The notes under the pieces are model-generated. The model made no database searches and was not told where the DNA came from. It was given only the letters and a program-made list of their open reading frames with translations. DNA of 64,000 bases from Trypanosoma brucei (taxonomy: Eukaryota): assembly GCA_000002445.1 (NCBI GenBank), contig CM000207.1:1312001-1376000 (forward strand). Direction: 5' to 3'. The position numbers and the translations under genes are program-made. Shown here one piece after another: positions 2,102 to 62,297 of this stretch (position 1 is the first letter of the stretch; every line of letters begins with the position of its first letter).

Positions 2102-2105
<4 letters not shown>

Positions 2106-13765: not shown

Positions 13766-14194
13766 TCCCCGGTGTCCAGTGCTGGTTCAAGACTCACCAC
13801 CTCTTAACGTTGGTCTAGCTTTTGTTGCAGCAATTTTGCAGTTGCATTTAGGTTGCAAAGAAAAAAAAAAGAGGGTACGCAGGCGGCAGAAGGAGGTTAC
13901 ACGCATATGAGTTGAGATGCCTCCCCAGATTAACTTTTCTTTATGCGTAAAAAAAAAAAAGAAATGACAAGGGTATTTCACACCTACCTGATAGTGAACA
14001 ATGAACTGGACACTAAAGAATAACTTAATGAAAAGAAAATAAATAACGTCACGATCTGAGAGGGATTTGCCTTTCGCTAACTTCCTCTCTAACTCTGTTA
14101 ATCATGTGTCTGTTCACCTAAAACCGAAAATAAACGATAATTTGGCGCCACGCACTTAACATACCGGTGGTGATAACCGGTCAAAGGTCCTCGT

Positions 14195-15253
14195 CTACTC
14201 CACAGGTTGCAAAGACGGCCTTAATGACTGAGGGCACAAAGAACAGTGCGGAAGGCCGCAACAGACACCGGGCACACCAAACGTATAGACCATGTCCCAA
14301 CGCTCTGTTGCCGACCCTGCCGGCTTCGTTTCAGTAACGAGGAGGTCATCGGTGCGTTCCACCGCTGCTTCTCTCCGCGCATTCGCACCTTCATCCACAA
14401 CGGTAGGAAGTGGGTGACTCACTTTTGAGTCCCCATTAACTCTTAATGAAGAAGATGGCGGTCGCGTTTGTGGTGCAAACCTCACCATCCTGGTAGAGCC
14501 GCCCTTTGGTCTCATATTTCCATCTGTGCCATCCGCCAAAGTGGCATGAAGCCCTGCTTTCGCTGGCTTTGCACTACATATCGGGTCACTAGGCCCTGCC
14601 CTCGACGCCCATTCAGGACAATTCTCTGAATCGTTGTTGCACAAAGATGAACCTACGCCGGAACGAGGGGCCCCGAACATCGATGCAGCACGGGGATAAA
14701 AATTATCGCACTGCTCTGTCGGTGGTGTATCAGGGGGTGCAGTTGGGACATTTAGAAATCTGGCGGTTGCTCTCAGGAATGGGGGGAGGAAAAGTACTTC
14801 GTCACCCTCCTGCTGCCGCGGTTCCAGATTCGTAGAGAACTTTTCAGTCCCATGAACGGAGTTATTCAGCAGCAGCGCTGAAGACGGGGGAATATCCTGA
14901 GCCAGTGGGATCGGGTGCCTCTGTTGCTCCGCTCCATAACTGCTTGACAGGAGAGGCCGTACTGACCGACGACCGGCGGCCACCTCTCGGATGTTGACAG
15001 ATTCCGCGCTTTCCCTGCCACCTGTTCCGATGCTGTAAGGGTTTACTTCGCCTTCCTCGTGTGCTCGCACCATATGGAGTCCCGAACCATTCAAAACGCT
15101 TCCACGTCGAGGTTTTCGAGAAGTGCTGCAACCTTTCGTCCCAATTGTTTTTTGCCCCTGACAATAATGCCGAGGCCGGCAGGAAACCTTGTACACTGTT
15201 GTGTCGAGGACCGTCGCGTATGGTTGTAGAAGTATATGTTCATTTCGGACCAT
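14195..15253 (-). CDS. Hypothetical S/P/G-rich protein, 352 aa, likely disordered
   Basis: ATG confirmed at 15253-15251 (MVRNEHILLQ). Low-complexity composition; no motif recognised. Confidence 0.4.
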   Translation of the reverse strand: MVRNEHILLQPYATVLDTTVYKVSCRPRHYCQGQKTIGTKGCSTSRKPRRGSVLNGSGLHMVRAHEEGEVNPYSIGTGGRESAESVNIREVAAGRRSVRPLLSSSYGAEQQRHPIPLAQDIPPSSALLLNNSVHGTEKFSTNLEPRQQEGDEVLFLPPFLRATARFLNVPTAPPDTPPTEQCDNFYPRAASMFGAPRSGVGSSLCNNDSENCPEWASRAGPSDPICSAKPAKAGLHATLADGTDGNMRPKGGSTRMVRFAPQTRPPSSSLRVNGDSKVSHPLPTVVDEGANARREAAVERTDDLLVTETKPAGSATERWDMVYTFGVPGVCCGLPHCSLCPQSLRPSLQPVE

Positions 15254-15725
15254 GCCCCCACAGCGTGCACGCTTACCTGGATTAGGGTAGTGAAGAGTTG
15301 AAAAAAAATACTTAATAAACCGATGACCATAAGAAACGATGCGCCCTCTCTGCAGTCGGAAAAACTTAGAAACAAAATAAATAATAAATTGAGAGGAAAC
15401 ATCCGGAAGTGCAGAGGTGCATTTCGTGAAAGCTTACTCTTCGCAAATTGGGAAAGAGGATTAAGAGATGCTACAGTTTCATGAGTGGCAGTGCCTAATA
15501 CGCAATAATGCTCAGCGGCCGCCAGAAGGGAAAAAGTGACCACTCGAAGCACCCGTAACACCGGAGTCAGATGCGATTCCTGAAAACAACACTTGATCAA
15601 CTTTATCGTCTTTCTTTTCCACTATCCTTTTTCATTTGACCAACTAGGTTTATTACGGAAACAAGCACCTCAACCACAAGGTGACGTGCTACGCAACCCC
15701 TTTCCACTTGCCCCTATTAGTTAGA

Positions 15726-17822: not shown

Positions 17823-18432
17823 CTCCTCCCTCTTAAACACACTTCACGTCATTCAGCTTTGCCATAAACGTCGCGTACATCGTTAGTTTGAAAGGAAAAT
17901 TAAGAAAAGGTAGTGTTAGTGAAAGAAGGATACGTGGTAAATGAGGTGTGTGACTGTGTGTGTGCGGTGTGGAGGTTGCAAAGTAGTGCGACTGGGATAC
18001 AATCAAGGGTCAGTTGCCCAATAAACCTTGAAGGCAGGCCCTAGCAGATCTCCCCGTTACGAGCGCAGGCAAGACAAGACAGGGAAAAAAATTAACAGTG
18101 AAACTGAAAAGAGCACGAAAACTACAATTTGTCCCTTCCAGGCAATGGCAAGGGTAACCTTTCGGTGAGATGCTCTTCCCCAATCTATGAAAGGTGGCCA
18201 TGGAATCGATTTCCTCATGCAGGGGTGGTGCTTTTCTCCAAATTTTATATGCCTGCAAGAATGGCTACATTTTGTGGGCAGCTGCCCTTAAATGAACAGC
18301 CAAAAGAGAAAGGAGAAAAGGAGGAGGGAGGCAAATACCACTGCAAGTCAGCAGTCGCCCGGCAGCCTTCCACAGAGAATGTGAAGAATGTGCAACACAA
18401 ACAGGCAACACACGCCGTAACCAGCTTTCGCC

Positions 18433-18967
18433 TTACTCATCATCAAGAAATTTGGATGTTTTGACCGGAACCTTTTCATCCTTGGTGAAGTACGTCACGC
18501 CACGACCATTCCGCTGGGTACGGTCCAGGTTCAAATCCGCACCATCGGACTGCAGTAACTCCACTTCACGCCTGGCGCGGTAGCGTCGGGCATCCTCCTT
18601 GCTGTACTTTTCAGGATCAAGTCCCTTTTCACGAAACTGTGGAATGAGGTACTTCTCCAGGTATTCTTTCGGCGTCTCCGAGTCTCCACGAGGTCGAAGA
18701 CGGTGACTGAGGTACTTCAAACAACTTGCCATGGCTCGGCAGCGCTGCGTTGTGCCGTCATCGTCATCGTTGCACTCCTCCGTGCGGGGTCGCTTGGTTG
18801 GCTTCTCCTTACCGCTATCGCTGGCACCATCGTCGCCTTTGTGACTGCTACCAGTGCCACTTTCACTGTCTGAGTCTTCCTCGAACTCGTCGTCTTCCTC
18901 TTCCTCGCCATTCTCCTCCTCTTCATCTTCATCTCCCTCACTATCCTCCTCCTCCTCCTCCTCGTCG

Positions 18968-43630: not shown

Positions 43631-45671
43631 CACAACGCTGCCGGCATCTTTCAGGGGTTGGAAGGTAGAAGGAGGGAAGGGACAAAGAAAAACAGTAAGA
43701 ACAATCCCCCTTTCAAAAAAAAAAACACAAATAAAAGAAAGAAAGAAAGGAGGGTGAAGAAAAAAAAATTACAACAAAGTGCGCGAACGAACCAAGTGTC
43801 ACATTTCACCCTCGTTCATCAGTTACAGCCCCTCCTCCTTCTCCTTCTTCACATAACATCTTGCCACTCTCGTGCGCCCGCAACTTTTCAGTGGTCCACA
43901 GAATAAACGGCAAATCAGAACAAGAAGAAAAATAAATGAGAAGAAAAAAAAAAAGTAGGAATGCAGAAAGTACGACAACAGGTTTTGGAAATAAGGAACA
44001 ACCCAGCGGCCAGCGACAGTGAGTCACTCAAGTATTCGTAAGGGCCCACTCACCACGCAAACGAAACCCACAAGCCTCGTGCAGATTTACCACAAGCAAA
44101 CACCCCTCACTTTTCTCCCAAAAGGGCACCGCCGCTTATATCTCCCTGCACTTCACTGAACATCCTCTTGCGGATAATCATATTTATTACTTCTCTCACA
44201 TTCTGCTTTTTTTTTTTTTTTAAGCTTCCTTTCTCTTATCCTTCCTCTTTTTTCCCCCTTCTGTTTTTATTAGTGTTGATGACAAGAGCAACAATGATGT
44301 GGCGTGTCCGCATGATGCCCTTCTCCCTTCTCCCTGACACTCAACTCTCGGGTCAAAGGGGCGGAAATTGAGCCCCATTATTTCCCTATTTCATGGTATG
44401 AAATTACCCGACTGAACCGTCCCCACATTCCACCCATCCTCTGAAAGTTGGGTCGGAGGAAAGGAGGGATCACAACAAAAAACACAACAAAAATAAAGAA
44501 ATCAAAAGAGTGTCTGGAAGAGCGATTAAGAAGAGAAGTGCTTGTTCCTGACATACGCACACACACACACACACACGGTAAGTACATTTTGTTTTTTTTT
44601 CCTCTCGCTTTGCATTTCCCTACCCATCTATAAACATAAAAATAATAAATATGAACTCTTACCCTGTCATTCTTGAATTCACACACGCTTCGCCTCCTTT
44701 TCCTCATCCCTTCCTTCCTTTTACCTATAGCCCCTACACGATAGTCCTTCTCATACCACTGTTGCGTCTCTCATATTCTTTGTGTTATGAACCACGTACC
44801 GCTCTCATTTCATATATATTGTTGATTCACTCCATTTGTCTGTTTATTTATTTGTCTGTTTTTCTTTTTTTTTCTTTTGTCTTTTCCTTCTTACTTTGCT
44901 CAAACACATTCCGCACACTACAACATGTTGCCGTGTACTGACAGTTTTGCCTTGGTTCCCGAAATGTTCTCCCACAGTTTGCTTGTTTTCGTTTTTGCTT
45001 TCTTTCTTTTCTTTTATATGAAATTTCTCCACTGCTCGCCTTTCCCCTCTCCCCACACACAGACACACAGACACACACATTGAGTTTCACCTCCTTTTCT
45101 TCTCTCTTTTTTTTTTCTCTCTGATTCCTTCTCTTTTCATTGTTTCACCGGCACGCGGAGGGTCGCAACGCAGCCAGGAGGGAGAAAAGCCAAAGCAAAT
45201 GAAGCCAAAGTATGAAAAGAAGGAAGAGAGGGAGGGAGAGAAGAAATGAGAAGTGGGTGAAGGGAAACAACAAAACAAAAACAAAAGATGGAAAGAGAGC
45301 TCGAATGGAGTAACGCGCGGATCCGGACATGAGAAGAGCTTTGAGTGACAAAAGGGTAGAAAGAGAGAAGGGAAAAGAGAAAAAATGAAGAACCGAAAGA
45401 AAAAAAAAATAAAACAAAGAGAAAGCAGTACGGTACTAGATTTCACACTTATGTGATATTCGTTTTGGCTTCTCTCATTTTCTTTTTTTTCTTTTTTACC
45501 TTTAATTATTTTTTACTTATTATAATAATTATTTTTTGTGTGATTCGTCCCAACGCGCTTCTCCATCCCCGCACCTCTTCCCTCCCTTCTACACACACCC
45601 CACCTCTCTCCCTCTTTCTCTCGTCTCAACACATCGCAACTCCGTTAGATACATGTATTCCTCCATACCAT

Positions 45672-45748
45672 ACATATATATATATATATATACGTATATA
45701 TGTAAATAAATATATATATATATATATATTATTATTATTATTATTTTT
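45672..45748. repeat. (TA)n plus (TTA)5 compound microsatellite
   Basis: catatatatatatatatatacgtatatatgtaaataaatatatatatatatatatattattattattattatt read directly. A further (TA)10 is at 45909-45929. Confidence 0.9.
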
Positions 45749-46368: not shown

Positions 46369-47352
46369 TTAACTCCACTGCTGTGTAATGCCAGGATACA
46401 CGTTTCCTTGCATTTGCTGTTGTTGGGGCGGCGGCGGCGGCTGTTGCTGCGGCTGCTGCTGCTGCTGCTGCTGTGGGGGCTGAGGCGGTTGTGGCTGCGG
46501 GGGCTGTGGCACGCCGTCCTCGTTCACCACTAACGATATGGCGGGGTTGCTCGTCTTGATGTTATCCATCCGCGAGAACTGAATATCAAGAGTAAAGGTC
46601 ACCGTCTCACCGATGGTCACCGGTTGGCCTTGCAGGATGTTCTTTACGTTCTCCGCAGTCGCCTTACTGTCAAACTGCACCAACGCCTGCACGCGGTTGT
46701 GGTTACGCTGGCTGGACTCGTTCTTGGGTAGGACGACAATTTTCTGCACGGCACCATAGTTGCAGAAGATCTGATAAACAATCATGGGGGTGATAGACGT
46801 GGCAGCAGAGACATCGTATTGGGTATTGAACATAGACACCAGCAGCGTTTTGCTTGTGTGCTGCGTGGCGGTGAGCTCCTGGTGATTGCTGTACCGAATG
46901 TATACACGGCGGCCGTCAATCTCAGCGTACCCGGCCTCTCGGAAAAAATCTACCAGTTGCTGAGCGCTCTTGGTGGATTCCATCTCTACGAGCGCCTGGT
47001 TCATCTGCCGAAGCATCACAATGTGCTTGATATTTCCAAAATTCTGCACAAGGTTTTGTATGCTCAACTGAGTCACGTTGGGCGTTATATTACGCATATG
47101 AATGACACGGCTCACCTCCCCTATTTCGTTATTGCGAGTCCGCGGCGGGCGTTGCACCATCTGACGACCGATCTGTAGCTGCTGTGGTTGCTTTTGAGCG
47201 TCAAAACCACCCCTGCCTTGGCCAGGGTTACCGTAGTTCTGCATCATTCCAGGGTTCCCATGCTGGGACACCTGAGGCGGCATCATGTTCTGATAGGGCA
47301 TCATATTAGGAGCGCCGTACAGACTGTTTTGAGTAAAAGGTTGGCTGTACAT
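46369..47352 (-). CDS. DRBD3: PTB/hnRNP-L-type RRM RNA-binding protein (DRBD3/PTB1-like), with Q/P-rich N- and C-termini
   Basis: SRVIHMRNITPNVTQLSIQNLVQNFGNIKHIVMLRQMNQALVEMESTKSAQQLVDFF...RVYIRYSNHQEL closely parallels PTB RRM1 (VLHLRNLP...KNQAFLEMNTEEAA...PIYIQFSNHKEL). A second RRM-like block follows. The C-terminus PQPPQPQPPQPPQQQQQQQ is encoded by (CAG/CCG)n. ATG confirmed at 47352-47350. Gene-symbol assignment is from memory of T. brucei DRBD3 architecture and is not verified. Confidence 0.75.
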   Translation of the reverse strand: MYSQPFTQNSLYGAPNMMPYQNMMPPQVSQHGNPGMMQNYGNPGQGRGGFDAQKQPQQLQIGRQMVQRPPRTRNNEIGEVSRVIHMRNITPNVTQLSIQNLVQNFGNIKHIVMLRQMNQALVEMESTKSAQQLVDFFREAGYAEIDGRRVYIRYSNHQELTATQHTSKTLLVSMFNTQYDVSAATSITPMIVYQIFCNYGAVQKIVVLPKNESSQRNHNRVQALVQFDSKATAENVKNILQGQPVTIGETVTFTLDIQFSRMDNIKTSNPAISLVVNEDGVPQPPQPQPPQPPQQQQQQQPQQQPPPPPQQQQMQGNVYPGITQQWS

Positions 47353-48160
47353 TTGACCCCCTTTAAATCCTTATGAAACACAACTGCTAACCTGTTGAAA
47401 ATAATTGTAACGATGGAGAACAAGAGCAGGGTGATCAAAAGACCAACACAATGGCACAATGTTTGCAGTCAGGGAACGGGTCAGGAAGCAAAAGTTCAGC
47501 ACCCCTTTTCCCTTCACGCTGTTCGGTGCTACGGGACCTTGTGATGATATATGTGAGAAACAAGTTGCCAAACCCCGATTGCTCTGTACATCAGGGTCAA
47601 TGGTTGCCGCCTTGTCAAAGCTTAATACGACAATACCCCCATGACTGAAAGAGTTAATAAACAAGGTAAGAAAACAAATAAGAAGTGTCATATTGTCATA
47701 ATTTCTTCTGCTAATTTTTACACACTCTTTATAACCCCTTCCCTGCCCACGACTCGTGACGTTCACCTCATCCTCCAACAGGACTGCTACGGCAGTGCAA
47801 GGTCCAGGATGAATGAAAATGAGCCGAGTAACAAAAGAGAAGGAAAAAACGAGGAAACCAACAAAGTGAAAAACAAGTTGGAAGGGAGCATAGCGCTTGT
47901 TTGGCAAACCAACAACGTTCAGATGCCCCTCCTGGACGAATAAAGGGAGTGGGGAGTGAAAGGCTTCAGCAAGAGAGCTCTCTCCAGTCCCCCATATTTT
48001 CCATCAAAAATGGAAAACAACAAAATATGTGTAACAACGGTAAACACAAACGTTAGCGTCAAAGTAGTGGTCGTCGCTTAACTGTAAAAACAAGTATGTA
48101 TGGACGCACGCACGCAAGCACACGTTTTAGATGCAGTGTAGTATATTTATCTATGGTTAT

Positions 48161-51100
48161 CTATGAAAGAGCTTTTTGAAGCTCCGCCAGGCGCTTCGAC
48201 GTGTGTAGGGCCAGGGTATCAAGCCGCTCGCGCTCCCTGCGAGAGTAACGGGCATTTGCGCCGCCAGCTTTCAACATATGCCCTGAGGAAGCTGGCGCGG
48301 GACCCGTCCCAAGCCAGGGGGGTCGGTTGGTGGGAGTGATCGTTCGCTTGGCAGACGCAGTGCGGCGATTTGGTGTCTTCTTGGCCGCAGTTACTGCAGC
48401 GTACATGTTGAACCTCTCTGGAACGGGTTTGTTGGTTGGTCGCCCACTTGCGATCCCCACACGTCTCTTGGCTGGACTAACGGACTTTGATTTTGGTTTT
48501 TCTGAGGGTCGAGAGGGCGCCGAGCCGTACAACTGTGACAAGTCGGCCACTACGCTAGGGACCGTAGAACTTTTCCTCGGTTGGCACTGAAGGAGGCAAG
48601 AATCTAATGCCAGTAAGGGTGTAGCCACAGTGTGAGAAACTGCACCGGCCCTCTTGTGCTCATGCCACGTCGGCACGTCTGAAGGGTACACCTCGCGGGT
48701 CGGCACCACGGTTACGAACGAAACGGGGGACCCGGAGACGGCCAGTGGCGACGCACTGGGCGCTAGATCACTTCCTGCTTGCGCGTCGAATGTGTATTCA
48801 GCGGTCTGTTGATATTGCTTTTGTGGACTTGGCCGCGTCACCAGTGATCCCCTCTGTTGGCCCGAGCCCAACCACTCAGCCTCTGTAGTGGTTTCGTTCG
48901 TGAACCGGAACCGCGTAGGGGAAGGCGACCCCGATGTCGTTCCATTTACCTCATCAGTTATGTAGCCCTCGGCAGTTGACGAAGCATTCGTACACACACT
49001 TGGCTGCTCTCGACAGGCTGGTTGCTCGTCATTCCGCTGCGTACTTTCTATTCTCCAGAAGGATGGCGCGTTCAAGGTAATCAGCTGCTGCTCAAGAGCC
49101 GCCGTTCGGCTTCGCGCTACATCTAGCATTGCAGATCCCTCAACAGCGGACGCGTGGGCAAACTGCAGCGATGACTGCTTCTGAAGTAGAGTGCGCGACT
49201 GTTGGATAGCTCGCTCCATATCCTCAGCAGTGGTGTTTGCACGGAGCAACTCAGCGTTCATTTGATTCAGACTGGAAAAGGTAAGGTCCATAGTCTGCGT
49301 TGAAGGGATGCCACGTGACACTGGATATGTGCTGGGTGATACTGTGCCAATCGGCGCCGGAAACGATCTGGCCACAGAATCCTCATTTTCCTTTGCACCG
49401 GAGCTTGGGTCGGTTTGAATAATTGCGGGACTCTCCACCGCTCGTTTCTCTTGCGCAGAAACAGTATCGCTCTGCAGCGGCAAGGTAACCACTGGTGGTG
49501 GTGCAGGTTGCAATGGCATCGTATCATTCTCTACCTTCACGGGTTGCCCTACACACATAGCGGTGTAGCGCGGTGCTTGCACAACAGGTGCAGCAGCAGC
49601 AAGGCGCTGTGCCCGTGAATGGATGTCCAAAAGCTCCTGGTTCATTTCTAGGAGGCGATCCTTTTGCTGAATTGTATGGCGAAGAAGCTGGGCTTGCTCG
49701 ATTGCGCTCAGCCCCACCTGCGATCGTTCATCTGACGCAACCTCAGCCCTTGGGTAAGATGAGAACTCTTGAGGTTTAGACCGAACCGCTTCCATTAGAG
49801 CTTGGAAGTTGGTTGCCTGTATTTCTTCGTGTTTGACGAGCATCTCTCTCACGACATCTAAGATTTCGTTGTCGCGCTTAACTTCTGTACTTGGCATCCC
49901 CACTGGGACACACATTGCCCCGCCCGCTGTCGTAGATGGCGCTTGCCCAAGTGAGGAAGCGGGAGCTGACGGATGCATTGGTGTCGGAGCAGGAACACAT
50001 TCCGGGACCGCCATATTTGCGGTGACCGTCACAGGTACAGGGACCAATACCGCACCAGCGGAAGTTCCTAGGGCACCGGGGCCTCTCATCTTGATCTCGT
50101 CCACATAGCGGTTAAATGCAACCGCCTCTGATGGTGTGAGTATCGCCTGTTTCGAAACAGAAGTTGGCAATGGCGCCGGTGACGGAGCGACATCGCCAGT
50201 TCCCACAGGAGTAGTGCCTGCCAATCCCACCATCACCTCTTTTCCAGGTAAAGCGTTCGCTGAATCTGCAACGTTGTGAAGCGGAGGTGGCACCCCTGAA
50301 GAAGGAGCCGCCACCGTAGGGCCCTGGGTGGGTAGCTCCATGATCTGGCCGGTGGTAACTGCGCTTACTTTGGGCCCTTCAGCTGATTCAGTAGCAAAGA
50401 GAGTCGTTTCGGGGACCAACATTTCATCATCCATAATGCGCTTATCCTCGTGTTCCTGCGTGCAAGATGACACAACGCACTGTACCCGCTTTCCATTCAC
50501 TACAGAGGGTGAAGGAGACGCCGACACGGCCGTGGGTACGTGAAGAGTTAGGAGCGAAGGTGGTCTGACAAACACGTCGCTCGGCGGCACAGGCGGTGGC
50601 AACAAAGATTGTGGAGCCGCGAGGGAAGCTGAAGGTGCGCTGAACTGCGGCAGTCCGGCAAGACGTCTGGAGCTGCCAACATTGTCCAATGTTTGATCAC
50701 ACGCCGTGTTTATTTTCCCTAATGCAAATAAGGTCACATGGGGAACACGGGGTTTAGATCGAAGCGACAAGAGCTGTGGTAGCGCCCTAATCCGTGCATC
50801 TTCAAGATCCAAACGTCTTCCTGCAGTCTGTTTCGGGAAAGAGTCAGCCATACTTGATGGCAAGGGTGGCGGTTCAAGCGTACTTTCGAATTTCAGTAAT
50901 CGAATGGCCCGGCCCCCTTCGTCTGCCGAAGGATTTAATGGATACACTAATCGTTTCCGCGGTAACACTGCGTGATAAACCGAGGGTGACACGCCGCGTG
51001 ATCCACAAATATCACATGTCCTGTGTTTGGCACAGCGGTATCGCTGTCCAGAATGTCTTTTGCACCGATGATGTGAGTGACGAGTATTCAGTATGCTCCG

Positions 51101-54100
51101 TTCGTCAACGTCCACGTGCCGTGCCGACGGCTCAGTCGTCAGTGTCGTGTATGAAGTATTGCTCTCCGCTAAAGTGTTCAGGTCCTGTCTCACGGCTCTA
51201 CTGGAGGGGCGACTGCCTGCATCCACGTTAGCCGCACCATCGGCCTCCCACCACGCAACGTAATCCGGGGTAAACAACGCCGAAACCGTAGACCGCACAG
51301 GAGCGGCAGCATACAACTGTGAAGATGAAGGCTTTACTTCAACTCGCGTCTGCCGCGACAGTGAGGAAGCGGTAGATAAATCCGTTATCAAACGCTCTTC
51401 ATTCTGTAGTGTCAGTTTCTGGGGTGTTAGGGGCTCTGCACTTGCTGCTGGTAAGGCGGGCTGGGACACGGAAGCAGGCGAACGAATAGCTGCGGGGGCA
51501 TCTGACAAAGATTCCTTTGAAGGGGGCCCCTGCAGCACGGGTTCAGTTGTCTTTGACGGCATCAATGCGTGCACACGTACGGGTGGTGAGATGGTGCAAA
51601 GTTGCTGAAAGAGAGCGGCGCCAAGCTGGGGAGAAAGTTCGTCTGCAGGTTCCGAACCACTATCGCAACAACTGAAGATCCGCTTGCGGGTATGTTCAAC
51701 ACACTCCGTGTGCGCCTCCACGGTGCGTTCGAGTGGCCATACTGCATCCACCCAATCGGTATTCACTAAACGCCGACGAGACTCCAGGTCGTGACTTCCC
51801 GGCCAGTCGGGTACATCGGCACCACCACCCCTCGACCAGATAAAGTAGTCTGTCCCCTTCATGTTGCCAGAACGGGCGGTTGCCACCTCGTACCTCCCAA
51901 GTGGTTCCAGGGGTCGCTGACAATGAGGGCCCTCACCGTCAGATTGCTGTATTTTGGTCAAAGAGTCCACCACACCGTGTTGATACCGACTAAGTGATGC
52001 AACCGTTGTGCTTCTGACGCCAGACAACTCCAACATCTCCAACAAGAGGGTGGCCAGTCCACAGTTACGAGTGCAGGTTTCCACTGACTTCTTAGCCACG
52101 TCCACGCACCGCCACTGCAGTGCTTCTACAGGCAGTGACGTCCCCTTAAGACCGTTAATAATGTGTAACAATTCTTTGCAAGCATGGACGACTGAACTAG
52201 CGTCCTCAAGATCCTGCAAAAGTTCAGTAACTTTGTCCTCCGATTGGTACGAAAAACTGACGAGGCCTAATAGGCGGAAACACAGAACAAATGTGCGAGA
52301 CACAACTGATCCGCCGGAAGATACCTGCATGAAGACTGACCCTGCGTCATGTTGCGCCGCGTTGGCGGAGACCAAGCAGGCAGCGACATCCCCTACTTTG
52401 TACGGTGACCATACCTCAACGGCGGCCCACAATTTCTCGAGCTTCAACAACAGAATTCGCAATCTCTCGCGACAGGTTCCCACAGATACATCTCGGAGCG
52501 GGTCCTTTACTTCGTCGAGGAGAAGAGCAGCCATCACGCTTGCAGAGTAATTATTTTGCGCTGCTATTACACGGTCTGTCATTGCGTGCAGCACAGCAGC
52601 GATTATGAGCGCCCGCAGCTCGCCGCTGAGAACATCCCCCATACACTGCCATAGACTCGTGTTGAAATTGTCGTCGTTTACTGAGCCATTGCACAGCACC
52701 TGCATAATATGTGAAGGCGTGGTGCCTGACAGTATCCGTCTGAAAAGCTCTGCTTCTGTTAGGGACACTGAAGCTGCACAATCCGCAAGCAGAGATGTGT
52801 TGTCATTGAGTGATCCAAGCTCCACCATCTGCTGCGCCATGGGAAGCGCGAACACCTGCACGAACGTGAACATGGCGTGGTAACGTCGCGCCGAGAGCAT
52901 AGCCAGTAATGCAGCGGCGCAGGGGGGTGTTTGCTGAGTGTCGGGTGCAGAAACACAGAGAAGGTCTGCAGAAAGCGCAAGTGTATAATCGAACAGTTCC
53001 GACTCATTTGTGACTGACGGCGAGACCAACACAGCGGTGCTTGCGGTCCGGCTCGTGCAGCACCGTAGCTGACCAACCTCGTTGATGTCCACAAAAACTT
53101 CCACGTCCAAACACGAGGCGAGAAGAACGACCCCAAGCGCGTGTATAATGTGAGAAGTGTTTGCTCTCGCGGAGACAACATGCGTTCCGTCAGACATGAT
53201 AGTCACTGAAACCATTCGTCGCACACATTCCTCAGCGAGTGGAAGTGCGATGCGCTCCGCCAAATTATCCAGTACAAAGAGTACCTCATCGTCAAGCTTC
53301 CTCGCGAAACTCTTCCAGGTTAACTTCAGCTCATCGGATACGACACTCAAAAGCCTTTCCGTTGCTCGTTCCTTCTCTTCCTCCGTACCCTGGCATTGTG
53401 CATAGCAATCCAGAAGACTGATGAAAAAGTGGTCGGTATAAACCACCGTGTTGTCACGACCGCGCTTCGCCAACATCTTCTGAACAAGCAACGCAACGTT
53501 CCACAGCAACCTCCAGTCCTCCACCTCCTGGGGTGGAGCTGCGGCCAAAATCCCCTGAAACACACGCTGAACCAAAAACGCTTCACTCTGCGTGGAACCT
53601 GCGCACTGCAGCATTGGAAGCAACTTTTGAAACACTGCCTGCAGGACACCTATCTCATCTTCCTCCGCAAGTTCGTCAATGAACTGAAGGCAACGAGCAA
53701 GTGAAACAGCGCGTCGCTCAGGCCCTCCTTCACCACTGGAAAGAAAACTAAAAACGTCACGCGGTATGTCCTCACCCACGGAAAGACCCGTAACCCTCAG
53801 TCCCACGCTTAGAATGCCATTAGTGCACACGAATTCGCTGTTTGAGACCTGAAGGAGATGTGTTGCGCACGCAAATCCTTCGCTGTAGAGGGAAGTATCA
53901 CCACGCAATTTCGAAGGGAGGCAGAACGGCACTGTGTTATTGGTTCGATTATCATCTGCAAATACAGCAAAAGCACCACCAAACATTTCGGAAGCGTACA
54001 GTCGGTAATCCTGGGAAAGCAAAACAACTAAGTCAACGCTGCCACTTTCTTGCCCTGTTGGGTGTGGTAAACTTAACCACATCACGCCACGCGGAATGCC

Positions 54101-55135
54101 AGAAATGCTAAGCCTTGTGCAGCTGGCCATCATATCCATATTCAGCGGGGAGCGCCGCAGGTGTGTGACGTAGCTGTGGCCACCAACGGAAACAAAAGCA
54201 GCGTAACGTAGCTGCTGCTTGTCAACATATAATTGGCAGCGTGGATGGGCGTAATCACTGACTTCGCCCTCTGGCACACGGAAGATCTGACTCTGGTAAC
54301 GCGTGTGAAGTGTTGCATCACGATCGTTCAGGGAAAAAATGATTTCCTGCATTGTAACACAAAATGGTGCAGCTGCAGACCGCGGCGGACCTCCGCCATG
54401 CACAGTTTTTTTATTGCTGCTGTCACCGTCCATATACGTCTGATCGAACACCGAAAGCGCCAATTCAACTGTCGGCGCTGACACAGCGCTCGTCACGCTC
54501 GCGGGGGACCCAACGGAACACCTCGCGACCGATACCACACGCTCGCTTTGAATGCATATGCAGTTGGGTATACCGAATGCTTCTTCCAACCTGAAGCGCC
54601 GCCATAGTTTTCCTTCAAGGGACCCAATTATCACATGCATATCACCCATGGGGGCGGCCAGCAGCGCAACAACCACAAGACCAGATGTCGTCTGCTTGAG
54701 ACACGATCGATGGATATGAAGTTGTGAGGTAAATCTTTTACCTTTATCATCAGCCGGTAGCAAAGGCGCGACAATAGTCTCGAAGTCTTCGCTATAATCC
54801 TTAGGAGAACCGACAAGGTGTGTCGGCTTTGGCACACTGTGTTCCATCATTGCGAGTCCAAGTTGCCGTCCCTTGTCGTGATGGAAAAACACAATCGTGT
54901 AGAGGCTGTCACATGCCGCGTCCACAACACGAGTGACGTACTTTCCTGCACCGTGTAAAGCCACGACCCCCTTTTTCTCGCGCCAAAAGCGCAGCTCGGC
55001 AACTTTTTCATCGAGAAACAGGACGTAAAGCTCCTCCCCTTGCTTTCTGAAACAGTCGATGATTCGTGTGCGGCCCGGCTTTTTTCCAGTGCCCATGCAC
55101 ATGGCTGCGGAGGGTGAGAGCGCTACCACATTCAT
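48161..55135 (-). CDS. Giant hypothetical protein (~2,324 aa). The structured N-terminal ~1,150 aa have a beta-rich start followed by long helical repeat-like sequence. The C-terminal ~1,100 aa are S/P/A/T/V-rich and predicted disordered, with an embedded Cys/His cluster.
   Basis: The track start at 55240 is GTG inside an AT-rich tract. The first ATG is at 55135-55133 (MNVVALSPSAAMCMGTGKKPG). The Cys/His cluster is HSHHRCKRHSGQRYRCAKHRTCDICGSRG. It ends ...RRERERLDTLALHTSKRLAELQKALS-stop. Confidence 0.6.
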   Translation of the reverse strand: MNVVALSPSAAMCMGTGKKPGRTRIIDCFRKQGEELYVLFLDEKVAELRFWREKKGVVALHGAGKYVTRVVDAACDSLYTIVFFHHDKGRQLGLAMMEHSVPKPTHLVGSPKDYSEDFETIVAPLLPADDKGKRFTSQLHIHRSCLKQTTSGLVVVALLAAPMGDMHVIIGSLEGKLWRRFRLEEAFGIPNCICIQSERVVSVARCSVGSPASVTSAVSAPTVELALSVFDQTYMDGDSSNKKTVHGGGPPRSAAAPFCVTMQEIIFSLNDRDATLHTRYQSQIFRVPEGEVSDYAHPRCQLYVDKQQLRYAAFVSVGGHSYVTHLRRSPLNMDMMASCTRLSISGIPRGVMWLSLPHPTGQESGSVDLVVLLSQDYRLYASEMFGGAFAVFADDNRTNNTVPFCLPSKLRGDTSLYSEGFACATHLLQVSNSEFVCTNGILSVGLRVTGLSVGEDIPRDVFSFLSSGEGGPERRAVSLARCLQFIDELAEEDEIGVLQAVFQKLLPMLQCAGSTQSEAFLVQRVFQGILAAAPPQEVEDWRLLWNVALLVQKMLAKRGRDNTVVYTDHFFISLLDCYAQCQGTEEEKERATERLLSVVSDELKLTWKSFARKLDDEVLFVLDNLAERIALPLAEECVRRMVSVTIMSDGTHVVSARANTSHIIHALGVVLLASCLDVEVFVDINEVGQLRCCTSRTASTAVLVSPSVTNESELFDYTLALSADLLCVSAPDTQQTPPCAAALLAMLSARRYHAMFTFVQVFALPMAQQMVELGSLNDNTSLLADCAASVSLTEAELFRRILSGTTPSHIMQVLCNGSVNDDNFNTSLWQCMGDVLSGELRALIIAAVLHAMTDRVIAAQNNYSASVMAALLLDEVKDPLRDVSVGTCRERLRILLLKLEKLWAAVEVWSPYKVGDVAACLVSANAAQHDAGSVFMQVSSGGSVVSRTFVLCFRLLGLVSFSYQSEDKVTELLQDLEDASSVVHACKELLHIINGLKGTSLPVEALQWRCVDVAKKSVETCTRNCGLATLLLEMLELSGVRSTTVASLSRYQHGVVDSLTKIQQSDGEGPHCQRPLEPLGRYEVATARSGNMKGTDYFIWSRGGGADVPDWPGSHDLESRRRLVNTDWVDAVWPLERTVEAHTECVEHTRKRIFSCCDSGSEPADELSPQLGAALFQQLCTISPPVRVHALMPSKTTEPVLQGPPSKESLSDAPAAIRSPASVSQPALPAASAEPLTPQKLTLQNEERLITDLSTASSLSRQTRVEVKPSSSQLYAAAPVRSTVSALFTPDYVAWWEADGAANVDAGSRPSSRAVRQDLNTLAESNTSYTTLTTEPSARHVDVDERSILNTRHSHHRCKRHSGQRYRCAKHRTCDICGSRGVSPSVYHAVLPRKRLVYPLNPSADEGGRAIRLLKFESTLEPPPLPSSMADSFPKQTAGRRLDLEDARIRALPQLLSLRSKPRVPHVTLFALGKINTACDQTLDNVGSSRRLAGLPQFSAPSASLAAPQSLLPPPVPPSDVFVRPPSLLTLHVPTAVSASPSPSVVNGKRVQCVVSSCTQEHEDKRIMDDEMLVPETTLFATESAEGPKVSAVTTGQIMELPTQGPTVAAPSSGVPPPLHNVADSANALPGKEVMVGLAGTTPVGTGDVAPSPAPLPTSVSKQAILTPSEAVAFNRYVDEIKMRGPGALGTSAGAVLVPVPVTVTANMAVPECVPAPTPMHPSAPASSLGQAPSTTAGGAMCVPVGMPSTEVKRDNEILDVVREMLVKHEEIQATNFQALMEAVRSKPQEFSSYPRAEVASDERSQVGLSAIEQAQLLRHTIQQKDRLLEMNQELLDIHSRAQRLAAAAPVVQAPRYTAMCVGQPVKVENDTMPLQPAPPPVVTLPLQSDTVSAQEKRAVESPAIIQTDPSSGAKENEDSVARSFPAPIGTVSPSTYPVSRGIPSTQTMDLTFSSLNQMNAELLRANTTAEDMERAIQQSRTLLQKQSSLQFAHASAVEGSAMLDVARSRTAALEQQLITLNAPSFWRIESTQRNDEQPACREQPSVCTNASSTAEGYITDEVNGTTSGSPSPTRFRFTNETTTEAEWLGSGQQRGSLVTRPSPQKQYQQTAEYTFDAQAGSDLAPSASPLAVSGSPVSFVTVVPTREVYPSDVPTWHEHKRAGAVSHTVATPLLALDSCLLQCQPRKSSTVPSVVADLSQLYGSAPSRPSEKPKSKSVSPAKRRVGIASGRPTNKPVPERFNMYAAVTAAKKTPNRRTASAKRTITPTNRPPWLGTGPAPASSGHMLKAGGANARYSRRERERLDTLALHTSKRLAELQKALS

Positions 55136-55419
55136 TTTCGTTTCTTCCAAAGGAAGAAGAGTAACGAACCAAAGTAAGTACGATGGGTGTCGACTTCGTT
55201 TTAAAAATAAATAAATAAAATCCAGATGAAAGCCTTGCACCGGTTGTGTGCACTTCTACGTGTGAATGGGAGAAGAGTCTGGCAGAAAGAAATGGGGAAA
55301 AAGCAAATGTAGGCGCATGTATACGTTAAGAACGGAACGACAAAATTAAAAGGGTGACCAATGATAACTGCGGATTACACGATTACTTCACTTTCGTGTT
55401 TGCCACCCAACCCACTATT

Positions 55420-55421
<2 letters not shown>

Positions 55422-55461
<40 letters not shown>
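55422..55461. repeat. (AC)n microsatellite, ~20 units
   Basis: acacacacacacacacacacacacacacacacacacacac read directly, in the intergenic region between the giant ORF and the CCA-enzyme gene. Confidence 0.95.
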
Positions 55462-55463
<2 letters not shown>

Positions 55464-55475
55464 AGCTGCAAGAGG

Positions 55476-59135: not shown

Positions 59136-62100
59136 CTAAACCGCTGAATCTATCAAACCTTCTCGTTCTTCTCCCGCAACAACAGCCAGTTGATCTATAA
59201 CCGTTGGCCAAAGAGTTATAGGGAGGCGTTTCTCTATCTTAAAGTAGCCTGATGGAGTCAACGCCTGATTCTTCAGTGCTTTGGCAAACCGCTCCTTCTC
59301 AGGAGTCCACAATGGATGGCGAGTTTCCACCGGCTTCGTCTCCAGTGGTTTAAGCTCCATTTGTTTCTGCGCCAAGATAAGAAACTCATCGTCGTCCCCA
59401 CCGAGTAAGTCAGCCCAGCTGGTCGGTTGTGCATTCTTCGCTGCCTCAGTTGCCGCACGCTCCTTGTTTGCAAGTGCCTCAGACCGGAGCTCGTTATAGC
59501 GCTGGAGGGCGTGCAGCTTGCTTTTTTTCGGGAGTGATTGATATTCTTCACGAATGAACTCTAGCAACGATCTCGTGTCCATCTCCTCCTTCGCCAGTGT
59601 TACATTGTCCCCTGAGTCAACGAGAATGGTCAGTAGCGTCGGGTAGAAAATATGACGGCCCGTCGTAAAATATTGAAAGGGCATGGTGGAAAGTATCTTT
59701 GACAGCAGTGACTTGCCCTTCCCCCAGGCAAAGATGTCCTGAATTTCTGGATCCTGTATGGAGAGGTAGCCTATCAAAAGTAAGCATTCGTGTAACGCGC
59801 CGCGCAGGTTATTTTGTTGGCGGTTTGTCACGGAAACCTTCCCGGACGTTGCACAACTAATGGCTTCCGTTCTGGCAAGCAGCGGCATTTGCTCTGCCGA
59901 CACACCAAACTTCAATGCCTCCTCAAATGAGCCTCCAACAGCACCACGGGCAGGATTTTCTTCCTTAATCGCTTCCAAGCTGTCTGTGTGAGATTGTACG
60001 TATGTAAAGAACCCGTTAAGCATATGGAACAACTCAGTTCTTGTGAACGTGTTCGACGACTCCGTGGGTATGGTATTAGAACCAGAATGAGCGCCCGTCC
60101 GCTTGTTGGTGGGGGAATCGTGAAGTAGTTCCTGCAGTGTTTCCAGATTCCACCTAGCGAGGCAGTTTAAGGCATTAAATGCAACACAAACTACGGTAAC
60201 CCGCCGAGCACTAAGCACTGGACTCAGCTCACTCAAGGAGCAGCCGTTGGGTGTTAATATATTCTGAAGAAGGGCAAAAAAAGAGGATGCTGCTTCTTGA
60301 ACCAAAGCAATTGGGCACCCACCCTTTCTACGATTCAATATGCTTATTTTCGAGCTCAGAATCCGCGTCGCGCTATGTGCGACATCTAAGTCCTCTTCAT
60401 CCGAGCACACTTTTACAACGGCGATGCAGTACTTTTCTATGTTGGTTGAGTCAAAACTGCTAAGCAACAGCTCTCTCACTGACGACAAACTGGTATCCGC
60501 TTGCACGGCTGACGTGACGCCTTCAAAACACAAGTGTAGTGCTTCGAGCATAGCGTCGAGCGGAACGGAACGTGACTGACGCTTCAAGCCCTTAATTTCC
60601 TCACTAATACACTGCAGGAGAGGGGCAAGATTACCCGAGCGAACAAAAGATACTATGTGCTTTCTCCCTTCATTTTTGTCTGCAAGAAAACGCAGAAGTG
60701 CCTCGTGTGCAAGCCGAAGAACAGACATGTTATTCGTCCGCCTCGATTCCAGTATTACGCCAATTATGTTTTCATACGCATTAAAATACCGCATGTATTC
60801 ATGGTCAGTATCCCCGAGGTCCGGCGCCTCTAGAATTTCCCGCAGCGATTGCCGGACCTGAGTCACAGGGGCTGGCGAAATGCCTGAGCCTAACCGGGAA
60901 ATAGTCAACTTCAACTTACTGCGGTTCAGGTCCTTTTGATCTATCAAGCTCTCCCTTTGATATTTATCGATAAAGCTCCTCCCCTGGCGCGTGATCATCG
61001 ACAATACTTTCAAAAACTTTTGCTCCATTTCCTCTCCCTCCTCCCGTGGAATGGTGGGCATCAACTCGGCAATTGTGAGCTTGGTGTCGGGTTCACGCTC
61101 CTTGCGCTGCCTCGCTTCCTTGATTTTTTGCTCCTGCTCCTCCAGTTTTTGCCGCAATTTCGTAATCTTTTCTTCACGGAGTTGGGCACTTTGTTGTATG
61201 CGTTCCTCAGCCTTTCTGCTCCGGGCCTCGGCTTCAGCGGAGGCTGCCCTTTGACGCTGTTGAACCTTTTTTTCCCATTCCTCAGCACGTTGTCCCTTCA
61301 TGTCCTTTTCTAGTTTCTTTTGCTCTTCAAGACGTCTTAGGTTCTCGCGTCTTTGCTGCTCTCTCTGTCGTTGCCGCTCCATACGTTCTTGGCCGAGGCT
61401 TCGTCTCCTCTCAGCAGCAGCGAGTATGGCTTCGTTTCGCTCCTGTGCCAATCGTTGGAGTTCCTCCCTTTTCTGCTCCTGGTTGTGTTCCACCTCTGAC
61501 ATTTTCCGATCAAGCAAAAGTACCTTCGCTTGGTGGCGCAACTCATTGTTGAGTCGCACCTCCTCAACACGAGAGATCCCTCGCCGCGCACGTTCCTTTG
61601 TCTGCTCCCTTGCCTCTTCAACGCGCCGGGCACCACTTTCGAGGCGTTCCATTGTGTCGATACGTAGCCGCTCCTCCGCCTGCCTGCGCCGCTCCTTTGC
61701 AAGTGCACCCCTCTCTTCAGCTGCCTCTAATTTCAGCTTCATCTCTTGAATTTTCTCTAACCGTTTTTCTTCCGCTATACGCTGCCGCTCCTCACTTCGA
61801 AGTGCTGACGCGTGTCTCGCCGCAAGAATCTCCTCGCGCTGCTGCTCCTCGTCGGCGATCGGCTTCGGTGAGATCTTCTTGTTCTTAACCAAACTTTGTT
61901 TCACAGCGCGTAGCCAGCCGCTAATTTCACGCTCTGGCTTCTCCTGTTCATCGGTGCCGGAACGCTCGGGTTTGGGACACTTCGCGTTTGATGTGTCGGC
62001 CTCAGCCTCCCGCTGCACCCTTTCGCATTTGGCAGCTTTGGCAACCTTCAATGCACGCAGCCCGTCCTCCACAACGTTGATAAAGTCATCCGCCGAAGAT

Positions 62101-62297
62101 GGTGCATTTTTGTCCTTTAGACAGATGGTTACCTCGGAAAAAATGGTTCGCAGTTTCTCCAAAAGAACAGATGGTGCAGTAACTGTATTGGTGAATACAA
62201 CGCGAGGCTGTGATTGGGTTGCAGCAACACTATTTATCATTCCCGACTTGGTATAGCCATTACCAGCACGTCCTCCGTTACTTCTTGCAGCTTTCAT
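59136..62297 (-). CDS. Hypothetical 1053-aa protein: N-terminal region, then a ~280-aa E/R/K-rich charged helix or coiled coil, then a ~600-aa alpha-helical C-terminal domain
   Basis: ATG confirmed at 62297-62295 (MKAARSNGGRAGNGY). The E/R/K-rich region runs from ~EEQQREEILAARHASALRSEERQRIAEEKRLEKIQEMKLKLEAAEERG... to ...KLEEQEQKIKEARQRKEREPD. The C-terminus has repeated amphipathic helices with conserved L/A/V spacing. Confidence 0.6.
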   Translation of the reverse strand: MKAARSNGGRAGNGYTKSGMINSVAATQSQPRVVFTNTVTAPSVLLEKLRTIFSEVTICLKDKNAPSSADDFINVVEDGLRALKVAKAAKCERVQREAEADTSNAKCPKPERSGTDEQEKPEREISGWLRAVKQSLVKNKKISPKPIADEEQQREEILAARHASALRSEERQRIAEEKRLEKIQEMKLKLEAAEERGALAKERRRQAEERLRIDTMERLESGARRVEEAREQTKERARRGISRVEEVRLNNELRHQAKVLLLDRKMSEVEHNQEQKREELQRLAQERNEAILAAAERRRSLGQERMERQRQREQQRRENLRRLEEQKKLEKDMKGQRAEEWEKKVQQRQRAASAEAEARSRKAEERIQQSAQLREEKITKLRQKLEEQEQKIKEARQRKEREPDTKLTIAELMPTIPREEGEEMEQKFLKVLSMITRQGRSFIDKYQRESLIDQKDLNRSKLKLTISRLGSGISPAPVTQVRQSLREILEAPDLGDTDHEYMRYFNAYENIIGVILESRRTNNMSVLRLAHEALLRFLADKNEGRKHIVSFVRSGNLAPLLQCISEEIKGLKRQSRSVPLDAMLEALHLCFEGVTSAVQADTSLSSVRELLLSSFDSTNIEKYCIAVVKVCSDEEDLDVAHSATRILSSKISILNRRKGGCPIALVQEAASSFFALLQNILTPNGCSLSELSPVLSARRVTVVCVAFNALNCLARWNLETLQELLHDSPTNKRTGAHSGSNTIPTESSNTFTRTELFHMLNGFFTYVQSHTDSLEAIKEENPARGAVGGSFEEALKFGVSAEQMPLLARTEAISCATSGKVSVTNRQQNNLRGALHECLLLIGYLSIQDPEIQDIFAWGKGKSLLSKILSTMPFQYFTTGRHIFYPTLLTILVDSGDNVTLAKEEMDTRSLLEFIREEYQSLPKKSKLHALQRYNELRSEALANKERAATEAAKNAQPTSWADLLGGDDDEFLILAQKQMELKPLETKPVETRHPLWTPEKERFAKALKNQALTPSGYFKIEKRLPITLWPTVIDQLAVVAGEEREGLIDSAV

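What the first reader, a model, noticed from the sequence alone, without database searches (positions are those of the whole stretch)
48161..55135. Giant ~2,300-aa unannotatable ORF with a structured N-half and an ~1,100-aa S/P/A/T-rich tail containing a Cys/His cluster
It is the longest ORF in the window, 7 kb and uninterrupted. It is in the correct orientation for the transcription unit and has protein-like composition, yet I recognise no family motif by eye. The N-terminal ~1,150 aa look globular: a beta-rich start followed by long amphipathic helical repeats. That architecture is seen in coat, tethering or nucleoporin-like proteins. The C-terminal half is low-complexity, rich in S, P, A, T and V, and embeds HSHHRCKRHSGQRYRCAKHRTCDICGSRG, a possible zinc-binding knuckle. 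Large kinetoplastid-specific proteins of this kind are frequently uncharacterised.
Basis: seen in the sequence. Interest (0 to 1): 0.55.

Follow-up and report, generated by a model that had tools for sequence, protein, structure and literature searches.

The report
Giant kinetoplastid flagellum-base scaffold protein gene
The 7-kb ORF is a real gene, Trypanosoma brucei Tb927.9.8760, encoding a 251-kDa kinetoplastid-only protein (beta-propeller, helical solenoid, long disordered tail with conserved short motifs) that a published tagging screen placed at the flagellum transition zone or basal body, not at the nuclear pore; its function is untested.

Summary
Window 48161-55135 (minus strand) is an uninterrupted 2,324-aa CDS, identical to T. 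brucei TREU927 XP_827200.1/Q38EA0. Accession order and flanking genes identify it as Tb927.9.8760. Syntenic orthologues of 2,200-2,500 aa (one of 3,956 aa) occur across kinetoplastids. A profile search of 1.84 billion proteins found nothing credible outside them.

A usable AlphaFold model (pLDDT 79.5) shows a 7-bladed beta-propeller (residues 1-452) and an alpha-solenoid (472-1185). The tail is compositionally biased but carries at least nine motifs or helices conserved across the family.

The Cys/His "knuckle" is conserved only within Trypanosoma, and only as C-x2-H-x6-C-x2-H. It is not a feature of the whole family.

An ELYS-like nucleoporin reading was tested and rejected. There are no ELYS Pfam domains, hhalign probability is 0.1%, and ELYS is absent from the top fold hits. 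The protein is also absent from the nuclear proteome and from NPC pull-downs.

Published eYFP tagging (Dean 2016, as tabulated by Goos 2017) places Tb927.9.8760 at "TZ or basal body".

Verdict: a catalogued but functionally uncharacterised, lineage-specific flagellum-base scaffold. Interest is moderate to low.

The parts
48161..55135 (-). Complete CDS of Tb927.9.8760 (2,324 aa plus stop; 251 kDa)
   Evidence: Open frame. Exact match to XP_827200.1/EAN76870.1/Q38EA0. Start confirmed by orthologue N-termini. Chance probability about 1e-43.
53780..55135 (-). N-terminal 7-bladed beta-propeller (residues 1-452)
51581..53722 (-). Alpha-solenoid domain (residues 472-1185), with a small beta insert at about 642-704
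   Evidence: DSSP of the model shows about 30 helices, with pLDDT mostly 80-95 from residue 620 onward. Orthologue identity 46-57%, similar to the propeller.
48164..51580 (-). Tail of about 1,140 aa, biased to S/P/A/T/V, mostly variable, inferred to be disordered (residues 1186-2324)
   Evidence: Composition and pI 8.9. Identity 31-39% against 45-57% for the N-half, with conserved islands.
51245..51274 (-). Conserved motif F-x-P-[DE]-x-[VI]-A-W-W-[ED] (residues 1288-1297)
   Evidence: Present in 16 of 17 kinetoplastid sequences.
51131..51163 (-). Conserved motif [DT]TATSYTTxTS (residues 1325-1335)
   Evidence: Conserved in 15-16 of 17 sequences.
50993..51079 (-). Cys/His basic cluster HSHHRCKRHSGQRYRCAKHRTCDICGSRG (residues 1353-1381); invariant core RC[KR][KR]H-x6-RC[AT][KR]HR at 1357-1372
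   Evidence: C1358, H1361, C1368 and H1371 are invariant in 7 Trypanosoma sequences. The cluster is lost or replaced by an R/K/H patch in Leishmaniinae, Strigomonas and environmental kinetoplastids. No Pfam zinc-finger hit.
50858..50902 (-). Conserved motif LLxF-x3-LQPPxxP (residues 1412-1426)
50726..50779 (-). Conserved motif LLSL ... PRVxL[FY] (residues 1453-1470)
50543..50611 (-). Conserved motif PPxLPxSSVF-x3-PPLLxL (residues 1509-1531)
50090..50140 (-). Conserved motif LSPxE-x2-F-x2-Y[VT]D-x-L (residues 1666-1682)
   Evidence: also present in the 3,956-aa orthologue.
49613..49714 (-). Conserved amphipathic helix-like segment GLSxxEQxxLVxxxIxQKNxLLxxNxxLL (residues 1808-1841)
   Evidence: 38% of columns are invariant in Trypanosoma and the segment is conserved family-wide. 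Helical or coiled-coil character is inferred from the sequence pattern only.
49082..49276 (-). Conserved segment of about 65-80 aa, helix or coiled-coil-like (residues 1954-2018)
   Evidence: Structure inferred, not modelled.
48236..48535 (-). Strongly basic stretch (residues 2201-2300; 21 K/R against 2 D/E)
48164..48238 (-). Conserved C-terminal helix-like motif R-x-RRD-TLALHTSKRLAELQ-x-A[FL] (residues 2300-2324)
   Evidence: 46% of columns are invariant in Trypanosoma. A KRxxxLxxxF-type end is kept in other kinetoplastids.
55136..55475 (-). Intergenic region upstream of the start, with pyrimidine-rich tracts and a (GT)20 microsatellite (window 55422-55461); probable trans-splicing region
   Evidence: Sequence shown; tandem repeat. 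The splice-site role is inferred from general kinetoplastid biology and was not tested.

Best explanation
The ORF is Tb927.9.8760, a single-copy, kinetoplastid-restricted 251-kDa protein that resides at the base of the flagellum (transition zone or basal body). Shown: it is a genuine conserved gene. Its N-terminal half folds as a 7-bladed beta-propeller followed by an alpha-solenoid, the coat-like architecture shared by IFT-A, BBSome, vesicle-coat and NPC scaffold proteins. Its C-terminal half is a fast-evolving, compositionally biased tail studded with conserved short linear motifs, two to three helix-like segments and a basic end. Inferred mechanism: the rigid propeller-solenoid module docks the protein onto the flagellum-base architecture at the membrane/microtubule interface. 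The long flexible tail acts as a multivalent tether whose conserved motifs recruit partners. The helical segments may mediate oligomerisation, and the basic C-terminal region (plus the basic Cys/His patch in Trypanosoma) may bind acidic surfaces such as tubulin tails. It would therefore be a lineage-specific structural or assembly scaffold of the ciliary gate or basal body, not an enzyme or a nucleoporin.
Against: The primary paper (Dean 2016) could not be read. The localisation is second-hand, ambiguous between TZ and basal body, and available for whole cells only, so stable cytoskeletal anchoring is not shown. The gene-ID assignment rests on accession order and position, not on a record that gives ID and sequence together. 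The protein is not among the 30 transition-fibre proteins or in the basal-body BioID supplements. No RNAi phenotype or interaction data were found (several supplements were truncated). The roles proposed for the tail motifs, helices and basic region are inference only, and the tail was not modelled. Fold matches have very low TM-scores (at most 0.18) and do not single out ciliary proteins over other propeller-solenoid families.
Confidence: 0.6

Rival explanations
1. It is a dynamic, detergent-labile trafficking or coat-like factor that concentrates at the flagellum base or flagellar pocket, in the manner of IFT or BBSome adaptors or a tether, rather than a stably built-in structural component. 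The propeller-solenoid would engage membranes or cargo, and the tail motifs would bind adaptors.
For: The architecture is that of coat, IFT and tether proteins. The localisation note says data exist 'only for whole cells', which would fit loss on detergent extraction. It is absent from the transition-fibre and basal-body structural lists. Hydrophobic LLxF, LLSL and WW-type motifs resemble adaptor-binding peptides; this resemblance is from recollection and was not tested.
Against: No sequence or profile link to any IFT, BBSome, coat or tether family. It has a single propeller, unlike IFT-A subunits. 'Whole cells only' may just mean that cytoskeleton preparations were not imaged. The motifs do not match a clathrin-box or similar consensus consistently across species.
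Confidence: 0.2
2. It is the missing excavate counterpart of ELYS/AHCTF1. The propeller-helical N-half would bind the outer-ring Y complex of the nuclear pore, and the disordered basic tail would tether chromatin.
For: The tripartite layout and size are strikingly similar: 251 kDa here against the '252 kDa nucleoporin ELYS ... three tethered domains' (reference list). ELYS is reported absent from excavates (PMC8421043). UniRef names the T. cruzi and T. conorhini orthologues 'Nucleoporin'. The C-terminal 100 aa are strongly basic.
Confidence: 0.04
3. It is an APC1-like scaffold of a ubiquitin-ligase or other large soluble complex, because APC1 is the top Foldseek match.
For: APC1 chains 9gaw_A, 6q6g_A and 5g05_A are the best Foldseek hits (E 1.5e-7 to 1.9e-6), and the Apc1 WD40 domain 5lgg also matches.
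Confidence: 0.02
4. The Cys/His cluster is a functional zinc-binding nucleic-acid-binding knuckle that defines the protein's activity.
For: C1358, H1361, C1368 and H1371 are invariant across seven Trypanosoma species and sit in a basic context.
Against: The spacing C-x2-H-x6-C-x2-H is not a CCHC knuckle or a classical C2H2 finger, and there is no Pfam hit. The cluster is absent outside Trypanosoma, while the rest of the tail motifs persist. The second half (CDICGSRG) is specific to T. brucei.
Confidence: 0.1

Closest known systems
Transition-zone / basal-body proteome of T. brucei (Dean et al. 2016, as tabulated in Goos et al. 2017 S3D)
   Same: Tb927.9.8760 is one of the 68 proteins of that study localised by eYFP tagging; its entry reads 'TZ or basal body'.
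   Different: This is a location catalogue, not a protein family. No function, partners or fold were available to me from it, and the primary paper could not be read.
IFT-A / BBSome-type ciliary propeller-solenoid proteins (e.g. IFT140/144/121/122, BBS1/7/9)
   Different: One propeller instead of the two I recall for IFT-A subunits (recollection, not checked here). An extra tail of about 1,140 aa. No sequence, profile or Pfam similarity. TM-scores about 0.1.
ELYS / AHCTF1 (Pfam PF16687 + PF13934)
   Same: Same three-part plan (7-bladed propeller, helical domain, roughly 1,200-aa disordered basic tail) and almost the same mass.
   Different: No detectable homology, not a top structural match, no AT-hook, and a non-nuclear location.
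APC1 (anaphase-promoting complex subunit 1)
   Same: Best Foldseek E-values; an N-terminal WD40 propeller followed by a large helical region.
   Different: No PC-repeat or APC1 Pfam signal. T. brucei APC1 is a separate chromosome 6 gene.
Nup160/Nup120-type Y-complex nucleoporins
   Same: Propeller-solenoid order. Foldseek hit 7vci_D (1,394 residues); Nup160 is inferred from the length and was not verified, but the chain is not ELYS.
   Different: TbNup152 already fills that role in the trypanosome outer ring. This protein is not in NPC pull-downs or the nuclear proteome.

Membership tests
ELYS/AHCTF1 | Matches Pfam ELYS-bb (PF16687) and ELYS helical domain (PF13934) | tested here: not met
   All ELYS orthologues retrieved carry both domains. 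None of the 7 or 18 kinetoplastid family members hits either, even at E<=10.
ELYS/AHCTF1 | Profile-profile similarity of the structured N-half | tested here: not met
   hhalign of 18 kinetoplastid against 16 vertebrate ELYS N-halves: probability 0.11%, E 0.51, 40 columns. Caveat: the ELYS profile had low diversity (Neff 1.9).
ELYS/AHCTF1 | Propeller + helical domain + long disordered tail | tested here: met
   Model and composition. This architecture is shared with other families, so it is not diagnostic.
ELYS/AHCTF1 | Closest structural neighbour is ELYS | tested here: not met
ELYS/AHCTF1 | Nuclear-pore or chromatin location; co-purifies with the outer-ring complex | tested here: not met
   From the literature: not among TbNups in captures described as saturating; eYFP signal at TZ or basal body and absent from the nuclear proteome.
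ELYS/AHCTF1 | Conserved AT-hook or nucleosome-binding basic motif in the tail | tested here: not met
   No conserved R-G-R-P core. The single 'SGRP' in T. brucei is not conserved in orthologues. A generic basic C-terminal region exists.
Propeller-solenoid (protocoatomer-like) architectural class | N-terminal beta-propeller | tested here: met
Propeller-solenoid (protocoatomer-like) architectural class | Followed in the same chain by an alpha-solenoid | tested here: met
   About 30 helices across 472-1185. Full-length Foldseek alignments to APC1, an NPC Y-complex chain and IFT-A.
Propeller-solenoid (protocoatomer-like) architectural class | Common descent with coat, NPC or IFT proteins, or membrane-curvature association | not testable with these tools
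   No sequence signal. The afdb50 library was unavailable, and domain-level structure comparison was not possible.
T. brucei transition-zone/basal-body protein set (Dean 2016) | Gene ID listed with eYFP localisation at TZ or basal body | tested here: met
   Goos 2017 S3D row for Tb927.9.8760. The ID-to-ORF link comes from accession order and neighbours.
APC1 | APC1 Pfam domains or PC repeats; being the organism's APC1 | tested here: not met
   No Pfam hit. TbAPC1 is Tbg972.6.3070, 202 kDa.
FG-nucleoporins | FG repeats in the disordered region | tested here: not met
   0 FG dipeptides in residues 1191-2324 and 2 in the N-half.
Zinc knuckle / zinc finger | Canonical Cys/His spacing, conserved across the family | tested here: not met
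   The spacing is C-x2-H-x6-C-x2-H. It is conserved only in Trypanosoma and lost elsewhere. No Pfam hit. Metal binding itself cannot be tested here.

The most novel reading that the evidence does not exclude
The protein is a lineage-specific, single-propeller coat-like scaffold built into the ciliary gate. In this reading it is a structural analogue, at the flagellum base, of the ELYS/Y-complex type of nuclear-pore scaffold. Its 1,100-aa motif-bearing tail would serve as a multivalent linker or mesh. If so, kinetoplastids independently deployed the propeller-solenoid-plus-disordered-tether design at the transition zone, which bears on the proposed kinship between nuclear pores and the ciliary gate.
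Probability: 0.12. Interest if true: 0.6.

Novelty: new member of a known kind. Interest (0 to 1): 0.33.

Why it matters
The flagellum base controls flagellum assembly, organelle segregation and entry to the flagellar pocket in trypanosomatid parasites. Many of its components are lineage-specific and have no assigned function. This work gives one of the largest of them a defined domain map, a family alignment reaching divergent free-living kinetoplastids, and a set of conserved tail motifs that can be mutated directly. It also shows that the 'Nucleoporin' label on some database orthologues is probably wrong. The result is useful annotation, not a surprise: the gene was already catalogued, and the fold class is common at cilia.

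Tried and rejected
- Pfam on the protein, on 7 orthologues and on 18 family members: no consistent hit.
- PDB sequence search with the single sequence and with the family profile: nothing.
- Word-indexed search with the N-terminal alignment returned nothing, although the single sequence had found 7 orthologues.
- The first AlphaFold run with 6 sequences was too poor to use (pLDDT 48.5). It was repeated with 18 sequences.
- The ELYS hypothesis was tested by Pfam content, hhalign, fold ranks and literature, and rejected.
- The APC1 hypothesis was rejected because TbAPC1 is a different gene.
- The zinc-knuckle idea was rejected as a family feature.
- Literature searches for Q38EA0, Tb927.9.8750/8760/8770, the old Tb09.211 IDs, guessed Leishmania IDs and 'TZP250' found no main-text mention.
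- Supplements of the NPC TurboID, TrypTag, RNAi cell-cycle, transition-fibre and basal-body BioID papers have no entry for this gene; several files were truncated.
- Dean 2016 itself is not held.

Full report
**Observation.** The minus strand of the window is open from 55240 to a stop at 48161-48163. The first ATG, at 55135, gives a 2,324-aa, 251.4-kDa protein. It is the longest ORF in the window; the next is 1,111 aa. The other five frames of the same 7 kb carry 59-102 stops each, and an open frame of this length has a chance probability of about 1e-43 at this composition. All large ORFs in the window lie on the minus strand, as expected for a kinetoplastid polycistronic unit. The start is supported by orthologues that begin at the aligned methionine. 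The tail (1191-2324) is rich in A, S, P, T and V, with pI 8.9, against pI 5.6 for the N-half. Residues 2201-2300 hold 21 K/R and 2 D/E, and the tail has no FG dipeptides.

**Identity and context.** The protein is identical to T. brucei brucei TREU927 XP_827200.1 / EAN76870.1 / UniProt Q38EA0, 'hypothetical protein, conserved'. Copies of 2,324 aa at 99% identity exist in T. b. gambiense and T. equiperdum, so there is no frameshift or assembly artefact. The flanking genes are actin, a 1,053-aa hypothetical ORF, the CCA-adding enzyme, the giant ORF, an RRM protein and FBPase. The CCA-adding enzyme is Tb927.9.8780 (PMC7897491), and the RRM protein is DRBD3, Tb927.9.8740. GenBank accessions run in order along the chromosome: FBPase EAN76866, DRBD3 EAN76868, giant ORF EAN76870, 1,053-aa ORF EAN76874. 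Tb927.9.8720 appears in a glycosomal list, which fits FBPase. IDs therefore rise by 10 per accession, and the giant ORF is Tb927.9.8760. It is also the only gene-sized ORF between 8740 and 8780. This assignment is an inference from order and position, not a direct record.

**Family.** A word-indexed search found orthologues only in Trypanosoma: T. congolense at 47% identity, and T. cruzi, T. rangeli, T. conorhini and T. melophagium at 37-42%. An exhaustive HMMER profile search of 1.84 billion representatives with the N-terminal alignment found 20 proteins. The full-length members are 2,236-2,536 aa, apart from a 1,960-aa sequence that lacks the C-terminal motifs, a 3,956-aa outlier and three short fragments. 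Named members come from T. vivax, Strigomonas, Leptomonas and Phytomonas; the rest are unnamed environmental or read-archive sequences. The one non-kinetoplastid hit is a bacterial VCBS repeat protein, which is spurious. Micro-synteny (CCA enzyme, giant ORF, RRM gene, all on one strand) is kept in T. cruzi and in an environmental contig whose protein is only 23% identical. The 3,956-aa member also lies just downstream of the CCA enzyme. The gene is therefore single-copy, old within Kinetoplastida, and undetectable by sequence elsewhere.

**The tail.** Between Trypanosoma species the tail is 31-39% identical, against 45-57% for the folded half. Conservation is concentrated in islands that persist across the whole family:
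- F-x-P-[DE]-x-VAWWE (1288-1297)
- [DT]TATSYTTxTS (1325-1335)
- LLxF-x3-LQPPxxP (1412-1426)
- LLSL...PRVxL[FY] (1453-1470)
- PPxLPxSSVF...PPLLxL (1509-1531)
- LSPxE..F..Y[VT]D.L (1666-1682)
- a helix-like segment of about 34 aa (1808-1841)
- a helix-like segment of about 65-80 aa (1954-2018)
- a C-terminal KRxxxLxxxF-type helix (2300-2324)

The tail is thus a string of short linear motifs and helices separated by variable linkers, not featureless low complexity.

**The Cys/His cluster.** The string is at residues 1353-1381. Within seven Trypanosoma species only RC[KR][KR]H-x6-RC[AT][KR]HR is invariant, that is C-x2-H-x6-C-x2-H, and CDICGSRG is T. brucei-specific. In Leishmaniinae, Strigomonas and the environmental sequences the cysteines are gone and only an R/K/H-rich patch remains, while the neighbouring motifs are kept. 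No zinc-finger model matches. It may bind metal in Trypanosoma, but it does not define the family.

**Testing the most interesting reading, ELYS.** The layout and mass closely resemble the '252 kDa nucleoporin ELYS' with its three tethered domains (reference). A review states that ELYS is missing from excavates, and UniRef labels the T. cruzi orthologues 'Nucleoporin'. I therefore tested it. My recalled human ELYS N-half was verified as identical to PDB 7r5j_T0. All ELYS orthologues retrieved with it carry PF16687 and PF13934, and no kinetoplastid member does. hhalign of the two family profiles gives probability 0.11%. ELYS chains are absent from the top structural hits, and the 7vci hit is chain D, not the ELYS chain T. 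There is no conserved AT-hook. Experimentally, NPC affinity captures described as saturating found no such protein. The resemblance is architectural only.

APC1, the top Foldseek hit, is excluded because T. brucei APC1 is Tbg972.6.3070, 202 kDa.

[quoted passage not shown] The main text explains that 68 proteins from the cilium transition-zone proteome study were localised by tagging to non-nuclear sites, and that none overlaps the nuclear proteome. The primary paper is not held, so I could not get the protein's assigned name or any knock-down data. The protein is not among the 30 transition-fibre proteins or in basal-body proximity-labelling supplements.

**How it most likely works.**
- Shown: a conserved, kinetoplastid-restricted protein with a propeller-solenoid N-half and a motif-bearing tail.
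- From the literature: a flagellum-base location.
- Inferred: the rigid N-half is a docking or scaffolding module of the kind used by IFT-A, the BBSome, vesicle coats and the NPC at membrane-cytoskeleton interfaces. The tail is a long multivalent tether whose conserved peptides recruit partners, whose helices may oligomerise, and whose basic end may bind acidic surfaces such as tubulin tails.

I put about 0.6 on 'flagellum-base scaffold', about 0.2 on a more dynamic trafficking-type factor at the same site, and a few percent each on the nuclear or APC-like readings.

**Novelty.** The gene and a coarse localisation are already in the literature, and the fold class is common at cilia. Newly added here are the domain map, the family breadth and synteny, the tail motif catalogue, the demotion of the zinc knuckle, and the explicit rejection of the 'nucleoporin' label. 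I class it as a new member of a known kind, of moderate to low interest. The least ordinary possibility still open is a coat-like gate scaffold with an ELYS-style design at the transition zone.

Noticed in passing
T. cruzi / T. conorhini orthologues P0004, P0011, P0017, P0005: UniRef names these orthologues 'Nucleoporin' while NCBI calls them hypothetical. No Pfam domain supports the name, and the T. brucei protein is experimentally non-nuclear, so this is probably an automatic mis-annotation.
   Followed up: partly
window 55422-55461: A perfect (AC)20 / (GT)20 microsatellite in the 340-bp intergenic region between the CCA-adding enzyme and the giant ORF, just upstream of pyrimidine-rich tracts.
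   Followed up: no
window 45670-45729: An (AT)30 microsatellite downstream of the DRBD3 gene, in the lowest-GC part of the window (GC 0.39).
   Followed up: no
window 59136-62297 (minus strand): A 1,053-aa ORF (EAN76874.1/XP_827204.1, 'hypothetical protein, conserved') with no Pfam hit. It is syntenic with a 1,041-aa gene in T. cruzi, so it is another uncharacterised conserved protein.
   Followed up: partly
T. cruzi strain entries P0015 (530 aa) and P0017 (1,807 aa): In one T. cruzi assembly (C4B63) the orthologue is split into two adjacent gene models, probably a frameshift or assembly error in that strain. The other listed full-length T. cruzi models in that cluster are intact at 2,340 aa.
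   Followed up: no
L003 6001-17871 (protein P0029, 3,956 aa): A divergent kinetoplastid-like orthologue from a read-archive assembly is 1,600 aa longer, with large low-complexity insertions in both halves. It keeps the VAWWE and F..YV motifs and the position downstream of the CCA enzyme.
   Followed up: partly
L002 (environmental metagenome contig), 1-18882: The gene order LRR protein, CCA-adding enzyme, giant ORF, RRM protein is conserved in an unidentified environmental kinetoplastid at only 23% protein identity. This is a notably stable micro-syntenic block.
   Followed up: partly
window 47371-47907 (minus strand) and 52008-52550 (plus strand): Short ORFs of 178 and 180 aa with non-ATG starts. 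Accession numbering implies that two extra small models (EAN76869, EAN76871) were annotated around the giant gene in TREU927. These ORFs may correspond to those 'unlikely' models; this was not verified.
   Followed up: no
window 46369-47352 (DRBD3): The same 327-aa protein is called DRBD3/PTB1 in the papers and supplements read here, but is labelled 'DRBD4' in the T. b. gambiense GenBank record. This is a naming inconsistency.
   Followed up: no
tool behaviour: The word-indexed homology search returned no hit for the 6-sequence N-terminal alignment, although the single sequence had found 7 orthologues. Negative results from that mode should not be trusted.
   Followed up: no
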